A DNA stretch of 60,171 nucleotides, the filler included, from Dugesia japonica (Eukaryota), in assembly GCA_001938525.1 (NCBI GenBank). It is 6 parts of 6 records of this genome, joined end to end, with 100 filler letters (N's around TTAATTAATTAA, not from the genome) between each part and the next. Parts side by side here need not be neighbours in the genome. Positions count along the whole stretch, not along the records: positions 1 to 9,513 come from MQRL01644020.1; 5 more parts are not named here. One strand, given 5' to 3'. The position numbers and the translations under genes are program-made. Every line of letters starts with the position of its first letter. The stretch's first letter is position 1. The notes beneath the pieces were generated by a model, which did no database searches, was not told where the DNA came from, and worked only from the letters and a program-made list of their open reading frames with translations. Shown piece by piece: positions 1 through 7,187 of this stretch.

Positions 1-255
1 GTCATGGAGGACCGGATGATTTCTGCAAAAGACTCTTATTGGGTTTTCCAGTCTCTCCTGAGTGTGGGATGCCTCTGTCTCTTTCCGAAAGGCAATGCAC
101 TTAGCCTTATAACGTTTCACTTTGCTTTCCGCGTTTGCAACATCCGCCTCCGAACGGCGTTTCGCGAGACAGTAGAGGTCCCATTACATTTCAAGATCCT
201 CACTACTCTCTTATTTTCTATGTCGGGGCAGTCGAGCGATTTAAAAATGAATGCA
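1..255 (-). pseudogene. Unknown cassette ORF A, copy 1 (coiled-coil-like; frameshifted; runs off the window edge)
   Basis: Acceptor tttttctag|TG at 257/256. Segments HSFLNRSTAP, WDLYCLAKRR, KVKRYKAKCIAFRKETEAS and ESFAEIIRSS align with copies at 5967-6323 and 59047-59389. Confidence 0.7.
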
Positions 256-442
256 CTAGAAAAAGTAGGTAATTAATGATACGAATTTTAACGACTTAAA
301 TTTAGTGTGTTACTCAGTAGGTAGAATACTTATCTATAGCAAGTGTTACTAAACATAAATCAAAAAAGATAAGCAAAATTAATAAAGTGTAAGGAAATTT
401 TATTAAATGCCAAATAAATGGAGAATAAACATTACACAGATT

Positions 443-878
443 TCAATGATCGTCAGTGGTGTTACTATTCTCCGAATTCCCACTTTCTTCGCCGTTACGC
501 AAAACCCAGAGGTTGTTCTGCAGAAACGCATTTAAGCTAGAGAAGGGAGGAAGCTGTTCTGTGGTGATGTTCTATCCACTCGCTAGTGGTACGTATCTCT
601 TCTGTATTAATTGGGTGGAAATTTCGTAGTGGAATGGTATACTGCTCTTTTTCTATCCGGACCATCCCACTCATAAAAAGCTAGACGCTCGGCCGCGTCC
701 AATTGTCTTTCTTCCTCGGTTTTCTTTGCCGGAAAGTTAGAGTAATCAGTAAGCAACCCCGCATTACTATTGTGAGGAGTTTTTACCTTTTAAAAAACGT
801 TTGGCCGGTTCTCTGATCCATTCAGATTTCCCACTTATATTCCATTGAATTCTATTAGATCCTAGTGGGCTCAGGTAC
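443..878 (-). pseudogene. Unknown cassette ORF C, copy 1
   Basis: Acceptor ttgttag at 880/879. Segments MEYKWEI*MDQRTGQTFF, PHNSNAGLLTDYSNFP, DAAERLAFYEW, PFHYE and NAFLQNNLW match 6507-6837 and 56697-56867. AATAAA follows the stop. Confidence 0.65.
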
Positions 879-1774
879 CTAACAACAAATTATCTGACTC
901 AAATAATATAAAATTACTAGGCGTGTAGGTAGAATTTTATTTATTATAAATAACCAATGTAATAAATAAAGAATATATTTATCAAAATAACACTTTTAGT
1001 TTAAAAAACTTTTATTAATTATGAAACAAGTTTTACAAAATTTATTGAAAAAATTAATAACTAAATAGATTTTAGAATTTAGGGATACTTTTGAGCAACT
1101 TGCTCCTATATAATTTAATGAAAGATAACTCAGTACTTCGACTGACCTTTAAGAAATTCGCAGTGGCCCTAACACTGCATTTTTCAATGAAAACGAGATT
1201 TTTGGGTCTCACTAATTTTGAAAATGATTTTTTAGGGGAAATTCTGAATACCTGCTAAAAGTAAAAAATTCTCTAGCAGTATTCTTCACAGTTAGTTAAT
1301 AAAATAATATTCTAGTCCGTAACAGACTATAAAAAACAATTTAAATAATAATAACAAATCTAGTCTTTAACAGACTGTTAAATTCAATAAAATATTTTTT
1401 TATTATGTTATTAATTTATTAAAGATCTAGAAAAAAAACTTCGATAACATTTTTATATTTTTTGTAAATTATTTTAATGATTATTTATTTATATTTATTA
1501 NNNNNNNNNNNNNNNNNNNNNNNNNNNNNNNNNNNNNNNNNNNNNNNNNNNNNNNNNNNAAAAAATATTTTGAAATTATTATACTAAAACTGTCCCCAGT
1601 CATCACAATTCTATTTCGATTTCTATTAATGGTAAATTTAAATTAACATAATGCGGTATAAGTGTAAATCATTTAAAGGAATTTAATTGTATAAACACTG
1701 AAACATTTAAATTATTATTTATTTAAAAGAAAAATATATTATGATAATTTGTATCGATAAAATTGACAAGATGG

Positions 1775-1963
1775 CTAGGCTTCTTCATCGATGTCTACAT
1801 TGAAGTTTAATGGGAACATCTCGACAAAACATTGTAAGTCCGTCTCGTCAGGATGTTCCACTAAATTGGGAAATAATAGATGACCAATAAGTTGCTTGAG
1901 ACGTGTTGTCTTGTGCTGCCTCAAAATCGTACGTAATGCATTACTCAGCTTGGTCGACATGAT
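1775..1963 (-). CDS. Unknown cassette ORF B, copy 1 (61 aa, open)
   Basis: cttgtag|ATC ATG. Motif VEHPDETDLQCFVEMFP is shared with 6990-7187 and 56441-56614. Confidence 0.7.
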   Translation of the reverse strand: MMSTKLSNALRTILRQHKTTRLKQLIGHLLFPNLVEHPDETDLQCFVEMFPLNFNVDIDEEA

Positions 1964-5966: not shown

Positions 5967-6323
5967 TTAAGCTCGATGAGTTTGGGTGCCATTCTCGATC
6001 ATAAACTGCTCGAGAGGTATTCTTTCTCGGAGAAGTAAAATGTCATCAACCAGTTTATTTTCTCGATCATGGCTGGACCGGATAACTTCCGCAAAAGACT
6101 CAACTTGTTTCTTCCAGGTTCGCTCCTGCAAGTGGAGGCTTCGGCTTCCTTTTTAAAAGGGACACACTTTTTCCTATATCGAATCACCTTACTATTGGCA
6201 GCGGCTATCTCTACTCCCACCGACGCTTTGCAAGCCGATATAGGTCCCACGTGAGCTCTATGTCCTCACTGGTTTCCCTCATTGATTTGGCAGGAGCCGT
6301 AGAACGATTGAGAGATGAATGCA
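5967..6323 (-). pseudogene. Unknown cassette ORF A, copy 2
   Basis: ctcttgcag|TG CAT TCA TCT CTC AAT CGT TCT ACG GCT CCT, with synonymous changes relative to copy 1. Then WDLYRLAKRR, KVIRYRKKCVPFKKEAEAS and HDRENKLVDDILLLRER...GTQTHRA*; frameshifted. Confidence 0.7.
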
Positions 6324-6506
6324 CTGCAAGAGAATATATTTTTACTGAAATAAATGATCGTTAGGAATTACTCGGAATTCTTTTTATTCTCCAACGACAA
6401 CCAAAATTTTATTATTAGTAATATAAAAAGACAACAAAAGTAATGAATGAACGAGTTATTTAACTATTAAATAGGAACACATATTCATATAAAAGAGAAT
6501 TAAACT

Positions 6507-6837
6507 TTAAGAGTTAGGGGATGTGTCCGTAGCAGGGGCGGTGTTTTCTGTGTCCTCCACTCCCGAGGGTTCCCTAATGCCCCAAAGCAAGTTACTGATA
6601 AACGCTTGCACCACCGGGGGAGGAGCTGGAGCCTGATAATGGAAGGGAGTGGTGTGATTCCGTGTTAGCCCACTCCACTGCTAATAATTCAATCTTTCCC
6701 AGAAGCGGCATCTACAGAGGGCAGGTTAGATCGCTCGACCAGTATAACAGCATCGCGGTTATGCGGGTTATGGTGTTGACGAAAGATGATTCGGCGCGTT
6801 CGCCGGTCGACGATTCGTTCCCAAATGGAGTCCATAC
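6507..6837 (-). pseudogene. Unknown cassette ORF C, copy 2
   Basis: actacag|GT ATG. MDSIWERIVDRRTRRIIFRQHHNPHNRDAVILVERSNLP, then PFHYQAP and QAFISNLLW after frameshifts. Confidence 0.65.
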
Positions 6838-6989
6838 CTGTAGTTATATAATTTAGGTAAATAGAAGAAATAATAAATGAACAATATTTTTATATAATTG
6901 AAACGCGGTTACACCGATTGCTCATATCTTACTTAAACTACGTCCACAAAGTAAAATTATTTTTTTTATATCGATAGAAGAAGAAAAAT

Positions 6990-7187
6990 TTAATGGAGCT
7001 CCTCCCCTGCATCCAGGTCTACAGCAACTATCATGGGAAACATCTCGGCGAAGCAGGCCAGATCGGTTTCATCCGGATGTTCTACTATGCCCTGTGAAAA
7101 TACATAAGCCAAGTATTGCTTTAGGCGAGCTTCCCTTCTTTGCTTCCGAATCAAACGGAGGGTGGTCTTTAATTCCCTAGTGTTGTG
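6990..7187 (-). CDS. Unknown cassette ORF B, copy 2 (65 codons, no own ATG; absent from the ORF track)
   Basis: tttcttttag|CAC... translates HNTRELKTTLRLIRKQRREARLKQYLAYVFSQGIVEHPDETDLACFAEMFPMIVAVDLDAGEELH*. Confidence 0.7.
   Translation of the reverse strand, partial: HNTRELKTTLRLIRKQRREARLKQYLAYVFSQGIVEHPDETDLACFAEMFPMIVAVDLDAGEELH

What the first reader, a model, noticed from the sequence alone, without database searches (positions are those of the whole stretch)
1..7187. Unannotated four-ORF cassette (B-C-A-D), each ORF with its own splice acceptor and stop, in diverged copies
Seen: on the minus strand, B (1963-1775), C (878-443) and A (255-1) recur as B (7187-6990), C (6837-6507), A (6323-5967) plus D (5851-5469). 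Conservation is at protein level with synonymous changes (HSxLNRSTAP; VEHPDETDLxCFxEMFP). Each ORF starts just after a pyrimidine-rich AG, ends in its own stop, and is often followed by AATAAA. A (all copies), D and C copy 2 begin in phase 1, and A/D start ag|TG without their own ATG. An ATT-rich tract lies upstream. Inference: either alternative terminal exons fed by one shared leader (adenovirus late-unit style) or an SL trans-spliced operon, probably the accessory module of a large mobile element. I do not recognise any of the four proteins.
Basis: partly seen in the sequence, partly recalled or inferred. Interest (0 to 1): 0.8.

Follow-up and report, generated by a model that had tools for sequence, protein, structure and literature searches.

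The report
Planarian mobile-element accessory gene cassette
A planarian genome carries three old, decaying copies of a block of four small unknown genes that probably belonged to a retrovirus-like jumping element and may have been read backwards from one shared spliced leader, an arrangement recalling the antisense gene of the human virus HTLV-1.

Summary
Synonymous sites are saturated while proteins stay about 40-60% alike, and A and C carry stops and frameshifts: these are decayed insertions of anciently diverged mobile-element families in a Dugesiidae-type planarian, not exons of a host gene. No protein matches a known family or fold; one unnamed 60-aa homologue of B exists. Acceptor-like AGs sit right at the starts; the AATAAA claim is not above chance. 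The flatworm spliced leader (ends AUG) would put A1, A2, D2, C2 and C3 out of frame; a cis leader ending in A fits 8 of 10 acceptors and would complete A|UG for A and D. The 'ATT tract' reads on the other strand as an Asn/Asp-rich frame whose start resembles one just downstream of a gypsy-type integrase in the window; in copy 2 it runs on to a membrane-like frame and a purine-tract/TG junction. Best reading (0.5): an antisense accessory unit of an LTR retroelement; D resembles a degenerate bZIP with an acidic tail. No pol adjoins any copy and no transcripts were seen.

The parts
1775..1963 (-). B, copy 1: intact 61-aa ORF, ATG 4 nt after a YAG acceptor
443..878 (-). C, copy 1: decayed (stops, frameshifts), own ATG at nt 34
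1..255 (-). A, copy 1: decayed helical ORF, starts ag|TG in phase 1, cut by the window end
2076..2700 (+).
   Evidence: (4 of 100 shuffles as stop-poor)
6990..7187 (-). B, copy 2: open 65-codon frame, no ATG at the homologous start
6507..6837 (-). C, copy 2: own ATG at nt 3, frameshifted
5967..6323 (-). A, copy 2: starts ag|TG in phase 1, two frameshifts
5469..5851 (-). D, copy 2: intact 126-codon frame, starts ag|TG; basic N-part, 90-residue helix with Leu at 57/64/71/79/86, acidic aromatic tail (10 D/E, 0 K/R in 34 aa)
5200..5432 (.). Conserved ~230-bp segment after D, shared with 59689-59918; holds an intact 63-aa plus-strand ORF (5223-5414) with a hydrophobic end; coding strand unresolved
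7310..8050 (+). Opposite-strand Asn/Asp-rich decayed frame N2, candidate ATG 123 nt from the B2 acceptor; its start matches 37387-37271 (minus), downstream of a gypsy-type integrase
8707..9230 (+). Stop-poor frame (3 stops in 174 codons) ending in a hydrophobic, membrane-anchor-like stretch; env-like by features only
   Evidence: 1 of 100 shuffles; no PDB match
9257..9513 (+). Purine tract followed by TGTTGTG: candidate PPT and start of a 3' LTR, cut by an assembly gap; on the minus strand it holds a donor-like site at 9376 whose exon side ends in A
   Evidence: no second copy of the LTR candidate in the window
56438..56614 (+). B, copy 3: own ATG at nt 4, one internal stop
56696..56944 (+). 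C, copy 3 (5' part; a possible 3' part at 58790-58870 beyond a hAT-like remnant)
59025..59389 (+). A, copy 3: decayed
59450..59600 (+). D, copy 3: decayed, zipper part missing
   Evidence: 0 of 200 shuffles
56140..56345 (-). Opposite-strand Asn/Asp-rich frame N3, candidate ATG 93 nt from the B3 acceptor, cut short by an unrelated gag-type insertion
37100..39100 (-). Related context, no cassette: decayed gypsy-type integrase (39100-38070) followed on the same strand by two Asn/Asp-rich frames
   Evidence: Pfam rve E 0.0019

Best explanation
B-C-A-D is the accessory-gene block of an old family of planarian LTR retroelements (gypsy/Metaviridae type, perhaps retrovirus-like), lying antisense in the 3' region, ahead of an Asn/Asp-rich and a membrane-type sense frame and the 3' LTR. 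Shown: three decayed copies, fixed order, long purifying selection, acceptor-like starts, own stops. Inferred: an antisense transcript from the 3' LTR splices one short leader onto any one of four acceptors, giving four separate small proteins; B and C bring their own AUG, A and D get theirs across the junction (leader ends in A, exon begins UG). Inferred and weakest: the proteins are nuclear regulators of the element; D, a leucine-zipper helix with a degenerate basic region and an acidic tail, would pair with host bZIP factors to tune LTR transcription, as HBZ does for HTLV-1. Component odds: mobile-element origin 0.85, LTR element read antisense 0.55, shared cis leader 0.6, split AUG 0.45, bZIP-type role of D 0.3.
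For: Three copies on both strands with saturated pS and low pN, then decay. GC3 0.47-0.52 unlike host and neighbouring elements. Free-standing B homologue with its own Met and the same end. Acceptor statistics. A leader ending in A fits 8 of 10 acceptors, an AUG-ending SL leaves 5 of 10 out of frame. 3 of 11 Asn/Asp-codon tracts in the window face B head-to-head and 2 more follow a gypsy integrase on its coding strand. N2 and the integrase-linked frame are reciprocal best matches: 71.5, 0 of 200 shuffles, best of 587 window tiles with the next at 47; N3 matches it at DNA level, 0 of 300. Membrane-like frame then purine tract and TG in copy 2. D: single 90-residue helix plus disordered acidic tail; its only PDB matches at E<=1 are MafB bZIP chains, E 0.52-0.69. 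Precedents: HBZ is spliced from an ATG-bearing exon in the 3' LTR (PMC3185765, passages); plant Retand elements carry antisense ORFs between pol and 3' LTR (PMC11963269, passages).
Against: No gag, RT or integrase adjoins any copy in the right place; the segments beyond D do not match the integrase. With Asn scores removed the N2 link scores 45.5 against 43, 43 and 42 for unrelated tiles, so it is suggestive only; N1, N2 and N3 starts do not match each other significantly (39, 149 and 181 of 300 shuffles). The regions upstream of copies 1 and 2 show no protein-level homology. The LTR candidate has no second copy and the purine-tract pattern hit 5 places. The integrase-linked element has no cassette. 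B2 lacks an ATG and A3's start is unreadable, so 2 of 10 acceptors do not fit; 4 of 7 donor-like sites upstream of B2 end in A, so the 9376 site carries no weight. The MafB match is not significant and Pfam bZIP families were not among D's hits. AATAAA is not enriched. No RNA data.
Confidence: 0.5

Rival explanations
1. Accessory block of another kind of mobile element or endogenised virus (Polinton/adenovirus-like or other DNA virus with genes on both strands and a bidirectional promoter between B and N; or a Terminon-like Penelope element with co-oriented ORFs).
For: Small ORFs on both strands, B and N head-to-head only 93-123 nt apart. Copy 3 lies ~2 kb from Polinton-like debris and 26-bp tandem repeats. 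Penelope-like RT motifs (recalled, spacing-matched) lie on the cassette strand at 3853-3715, between copies 2 and 1. Terminons carry many co-oriented coiled-coil ORFs (PMC6431247, passages).
Against: Copies 1 and 2 are >8 kb from Polinton debris; cassette GC3 is about twice that of the Polinton-like integrase and capsid; a gag fragment with its own PBS-like site separates copy 3 from the Polinton end. No hammerhead or other Rfam match. The RT-like stretch has no Pfam support, lies across an assembly gap and is absent near copy 3.
Confidence: 0.27
2. An SL trans-spliced operon: one polycistronic transcript resolved by the flatworm spliced leader (with non-AUG GUG starts for A and D), inside whatever element carries it.
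For: The host is a planarian and planarians trans-splice (PMC12582326, passages). Most spacers are 81-187 nt, within the <=300-nt operon range used there. The SL's terminal AUG would be in frame with B and would explain B2's missing ATG.
Against: The same AUG is out of frame for A1, A2, D2, C2 and C3, 5 of 10; AATAAA after the ORFs is not enriched.
Confidence: 0.12
3. Host genes: exons of one ordinary gene, or a duplicated and pseudogenised cluster of planarian-specific genes.
For: Acceptor-like sites and purifying selection are also expected of host exons; planarian orphan genes are poorly represented in the databases searched.
Against: No donor of the GTRAR type in any B copy and no shared donor position in C or A; stops at homologous ends and a complete 60-aa B homologue; GC3 unlike the host exon; dispersed copies among nested transposon debris, all broken; no named relative although a host gene of this window finds S. 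mediterranea at 81%.
Confidence: 0.08

Closest known systems
HTLV-1 hbz / HTLV-2-4 APH antisense genes (PMC3185765, passages)
   Same: Proposed antisense unit in the 3' part of an LTR element, spliced from a leader that supplies the start codon; a zipper protein with a non-canonical basic region.
   Different: One antisense gene in deltaretroviruses against four here; no sequence similarity tested positive; HBZ's activation domain is N-terminal, D's acidic tail is C-terminal; here the leader and LTR link are inferred.
Plant Retand (Tat-type) gypsy elements (PMC11963269, passages)
   Same: Antisense ORFs of unknown function and low-complexity repeats between pol and the 3' LTR.
   Different: Plant-only, long ORFs with the TRP28 domain (not hit by any cassette protein); no series of small acceptor-led ORFs described in the passages seen.
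Burro giant gypsy elements of Dugesiidae (PMC6431247, section 7 read)
   Same: Same host family; provirus-like gypsy elements with accessory ORFs; decaying fragments reported in D. japonica.
   Different: Burro accessories are known domains (MATH, BIR, BCL2, ankyrin) in or before a ~5,000-aa polyprotein with env between gag and pol; none of these was hit here and the section describes no antisense block.
Bdelloid LTR ORF3s and Terminons (PMC5408684, passages; PMC6431247, passages)
   Same: Extra coiled-coil and membrane ORFs, typically spliced, carried by invertebrate retroelements.
   Different: Single sense ORF3 per LTR family, or co-oriented ORFs with hammerheads in Terminons; no hammerhead here.
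Maf/CREB-type bZIP factors
   Same: D aligns across the extended, basic and zipper regions of MafB; Leu heptads with an Asn at an a position.
   Different: E 0.5; the N-x7-R/K basic signature (recalled) is absent at the canonical spacing; one heptad has 8 residues.

Membership tests
Metaviridae (gypsy-type LTR retroelement) | gag and pol (PR-RT-RH-IN) in the same element | tested here: inconclusive
   None adjacent to any copy; an integrase remnant 30 kb away is linked only through the Asn/Asp-rich frame; copies are cut by gaps, window ends and insertions
Metaviridae (gypsy-type LTR retroelement) | Paired LTRs (TG..CA), PPT, PBS, target-site duplication | tested here: inconclusive
   One purine tract + TG candidate at 9257-9275, no second copy, end in a gap
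Metaviridae (gypsy-type LTR retroelement) | RT phylogeny within Ty3/gypsy | not testable with these tools
   No linked RT in the window; no eukaryotic genome collection on hand
env-bearing retrovirus-like element | Envelope glycoprotein traceable to a viral fusion protein | tested here: inconclusive
   Stop-poor frame with hydrophobic end; no Pfam or PDB match
Burro | Giant polyprotein with MATH/BIR/BCL2/ankyrin accessory domains | tested here: inconclusive
Polinton/Maverick | TIRs, pPolB, integrase, ATPase and capsid genes in the same unit | tested here: inconclusive
   Debris elsewhere in the window; none contiguous with copies 1-2; composition differs
Terminon/Penelope-like element | Hammerhead ribozyme at the 3' end | tested here: inconclusive
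   Rfam at E<=1 gave 1 unrelated match; decayed ribozymes could be missed
SL-resolved operon | SL addition yields in-frame or unobstructed downstream cistrons | tested here: not met
   AUG-ending SL is out of frame for 5 of 10 segments
SL-resolved operon | SL-bearing reads at the acceptors | not testable with these tools
   No RNA data
bZIP transcription factor (D) | Leucine heptad zipper on a long helix | tested here: met
   Leu 57/64/71/79/86, helix 2-90
bZIP transcription factor (D) | Basic-region signature N-x7-R/K at fixed distance from the zipper; family-level profile match | tested here: not met
   Signature (recalled) absent at canonical spacing; no Pfam bZIP hit at E<=0.1; MafB only at E 0.52
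Ordinary multi-exon host gene | Conserved donors and open frame joining the segments | tested here: not met
   No donor in B, none shared in C or A; stops at homologous ends

The most novel reading that the evidence does not exclude
A clade of planarian retrovirus-like Metaviridae with a complex-retrovirus-grade antisense unit: one 3'-LTR leader alternatively spliced to four or more accessory genes, two of which have their AUG built across the splice junction, including a bZIP-like regulator that converged on HTLV-1 HBZ.
Probability: 0.22. Interest if true: 0.8.

Novelty: new variant of a known kind. Interest (0 to 1): 0.52.

Why it matters
The four protein families have no match in Pfam, NCBIfam, PHROGs, the PDB or fold libraries, and only one unnamed relative among 1.84 billion representatives, yet they were kept in fixed order across element families whose synonymous sites are saturated. 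If the LTR link holds, an invertebrate retroelement would have a multi-gene antisense unit of a complexity so far associated with complex vertebrate retroviruses, with start codons gated by splicing, and it is directly testable in existing planarian long-read genomes and PIWI-knockdown RNA-seq. If it does not hold, these are still four new mobile-element gene families that mark an undescribed element.

Tried and rejected
Homologue searches: D, word-based, none of 17 candidates; B alignment, no candidate; full HMMER scan with the one frame of copy 2 that carries B2, the C-terminal 50 aa of A2 and D2 gave 1 hit, to B; C and the N-terminal part of A were not covered by that scan. ESM Atlas: no usable hit for D, only scores <=0.83 for B2. 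Pfam, NCBIfam, PHROGs: only weak coiled-coil or low-complexity rows below cut-off. PDB by sequence: B best E 0.015 to a chorismate mutase stretch, judged chance; nothing for C2 N-part or A1; searches used off-frame references and are uninformative. Fold searches with the B model: no E<=0.001 in PDB or BFVD, best Z 4.7 among 48,161 chains. D homodimer job: no verdict, score 0.01 against a mark of 0.32, not evidence either way. GTDB scan: 1 locus of 159 pattern matches, a 12-aa chance match in a 66%-GC bacterial contig with no other cassette part. Phage records: no match for D. Rfam: nothing relevant. Ideas dropped: WW domain in C and RING in the segment after D (by eye; no support); gag zinc knuckle plus protease after N2 (motif scan empty); the gag-like frame at 55.2-56.0 kb as part of copy 3 (own PBS-like site, only a 19-residue match to copy 2's flank); homology of upstream regions U1/U2/U4 (all within shuffles); a fifth cassette ORF after D (conserved DNA, but strand unresolved and p 0.007-0.09 at DNA level); Drosophila MDG1 sORFs as a spliced precedent (the paper reports them unspliced, PMC11952523, passages). 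The stop-depletion test is weak: the integrase remnant itself scored 58 of 100. Literature searches (listings only unless read) returned no description of such a cassette; Grohme et al. 2018 is not held and its supplement or Repbase entries may already contain these elements. Metagenome and viral contig collections stayed unchecked.
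Full report
Setting. The window is 27% GC with many assembly gaps. Its one clear host gene is a class C GPCR on the minus strand (exons 17591-17448 and 14676-13534), 81% identical to S. mediterranea GCR106 and at most 49% to the other 45 hits; the host is therefore a planarian related to, but distinct from, S. 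mediterranea (inference). The rest is nested transposon debris: Polinton-like pieces, a GIY-YIG Penelope-like end at 40.1-41.1 kb, hAT-like pieces, a gypsy-type integrase at 39100-38070 and a gag fragment at 55.2-56.0 kb.

The observation. A self-search found a third copy on the plus strand: B3 56438-56614, C3 56696-56944, A3 ~59025-59389 after a hAT-like remnant, and a degraded D3 at ~59450-59600. Nine of 10 pairwise comparisons beat all 200 shuffles; C2/C3 was reached by 2 of 200. Synonymous sites are saturated (pS 0.76-1.02) while pN is 0.19-0.49 (for A, C and D the codon pairs come from protein-guided alignments, which favours low pN, but the B pairs are ungapped). Only B1, B2 and D2 are open; the rest carry stops or frameshifts. 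Long selection followed by decay, dispersal on both strands and GC3 of 0.47-0.52 against 0.19 in the host exon is the signature of old insertions of diverged mobile-element families.

Separate genes, not exons. B has no GTRAR donor in any copy and C and A share none. The one outside relative, P0001 (Logan, 60 aa, 40-55% identical to the three copies), starts with Met and ends at the same point. All 10 acceptors rank in the top 0.6-18% of 4,956 AGs, and 4 of 5 own-ATG segments have one 1-4 nt before the ATG against 54 of 2,068 ATGs (cut-off chosen after the fact). AATAAA follows 5 of 9 stops against 262 of 919 background tiles, p=0.08: not evidence.

What is spliced on. B1, B3, C1, C2, C3 have their own ATG; A1, A2 and D2 begin UG in phase 1 with conserved codons right from the junction and no shared downstream ATG; B2 lacks an ATG and A3 is unreadable. 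The flatworm SL ends in AUG (PMC9851317, passages): in frame for B, out of frame for A1, A2, D2, C2, C3. A coding leader ending in phase 1 would place an out-of-frame AUG before B. A non-coding leader ending in A leaves B and C untouched and completes AUG for A and D, fitting 8 of 10; TG follows only 16 of 349 strong AGs, so its presence in both A and D is what that model needs. An unspliced GUG start remains possible. All of this is inference from sequence; no transcript was seen.

Which element. The 'ATT tract' is an Asn/Asp-codon tract on the other strand; 3 of 11 such tracts in the window face B head-to-head, with candidate ATGs 113, 123 and 93 nt from the B acceptor, and 2 more directly follow the gypsy integrase on its coding strand. 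The start of N2 and the second integrase-linked frame are reciprocal best matches (71.5; 0 of 200 shuffles; best of 587 tiles, next 47) and N3 matches the same frame at DNA level (0 of 300, one of ten pairs tested). Against this, with Asn scores removed the margin over unrelated tiles is 45.5 to 43, and N1, N2, N3 do not match each other significantly. In copy 2 the strand continues into a stop-poor frame with a hydrophobic end (8707-9230; 1 of 100 shuffles) and a purine tract followed by TGTTGTG at 9257 (one of 5 pattern hits; no second LTR copy). After D, ~230 bp are conserved between copies 2 and 3 and hold an intact 63-aa plus-strand ORF in copy 2, strand unresolved. No pol adjoins any copy, and the integrase-linked element has no cassette. 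The LTR reading is thus moderately supported; Polinton/DNA-virus and Penelope readings have less.

The proteins. B folds as a 30-residue helix, loop and short helix with no sequence or fold match. A reads as helical with no match; C has none. D is a 90-residue helix with a basic first half, Leu at 57/64/71/79/86 and an acidic aromatic tail; its only PDB rows at E<=1 are three MafB chains, E 0.52-0.69, aligned over extended, basic and zipper regions, without Pfam bZIP support. It works, if anything, like a bZIP partner or decoy, but fails bZIP membership.

Comparison. HBZ of HTLV-1 is an antisense zipper protein spliced from an ATG-bearing exon in the 3' LTR (PMC3185765, passages); plant Retand elements carry antisense ORFs between pol and the 3' LTR (PMC11963269, passages); Burro elements of the same host family carry accessory ORFs of known domains (PMC6431247, section 7); bdelloid LTR elements carry varied spliced ORF3s (PMC5408684, passages). 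Passages of PMC11410931, PMC8532177, PMC12582326 and PMC11952523 were also seen. Ten searches showed no description of this cassette, but the primary planarian repeat paper is not held and repeat libraries were not searchable.

Verdict. A real, selected, four-gene accessory cassette of an unidentified planarian mobile element (0.85), most likely an antisense unit of an LTR retroelement fed by one cis leader (0.5 overall). New variant of a known kind; interest 0.52, rising to about 0.8 if flanks and splice junctions confirm the full model.

Noticed in passing
window 13519-14676 and 17448-17591 (-): Last two exons of a class C GPCR, 81% identical to S. mediterranea GCR106; the upstream exons were not found in the window.
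   Followed up: yes
window 17.7-34 kb, 34762-35151 and 48.3-54.4 kb: Polinton-like debris in at least two related copies (77% DNA identity between 17.8-19.6 kb and 52.1-54.0 kb): integrase-like, ATPase-like, capsid-like frames (Capsid_N E 0.049 at 30416-30817), a TBP-like frame by eye at 24122-24775, and 26-bp tandem repeats at 54293-54384.
   Followed up: partly
window 55200-56150 (-): Decayed gag-type fragment with a PBS-like site at ~56016 and two zinc-knuckle-like motifs (55339, 55285), inserted into the Asn-rich frame of copy 3; no pol follows.
   Followed up: partly
window 36560-39100 (-): Gypsy-type integrase remnant followed by two tandem Asn/Asp-rich frames, each behind an acceptor-like T-rich AG, then a frame ending in a hydrophobic stretch near 36600; may be a cassette-less relative.
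   Followed up: partly
window 3500-4543 (-): Stop-poor frame with Penelope-like RT motifs (recalled) at 3853-3715, truncated next to copy 1's upstream region; no Pfam support.
   Followed up: partly
window 40100-41100 (+): 3' half of a Penelope-like element: RT end and GIY-YIG (Pfam E 0.008).
   Followed up: no
window 57400-58700 (+): hAT-like transposase remnant (Dimer_Tnp_hAT E 0.076) inserted in or after C3.
   Followed up: partly
window 9241-9513 (-): The LTR candidate holds a stop-free 90-codon frame on the minus strand (2 of 100 shuffles); could be chance or a further antisense ORF.
   Followed up: no
window 12511-12786 / 13215-13489 and 11703-11786 / 11908-11991: Inverted repeats (86% over 277 bp; 77% over 84 bp), probably MITE-type elements; pogo-like transposase remnant by eye at ~10.6-11.3 kb (-).
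   Followed up: no
window 9514-9613, 17708-17807, 27127-27226, 35659-35758, 49024-49123: Repeated 44 N + 12 nt + 44 N scaffolding linkers: joins across them, and across other gaps such as 4544-4755 between copies 2 and 1, may not reflect true adjacency; some frameshifts may be sequencing errors.
   Followed up: no
window 879-1774: The B-C spacer of copy 1 is 896 nt against 152 and 81 in the other copies; the extra AT-rich sequence was not identified.
   Followed up: partly
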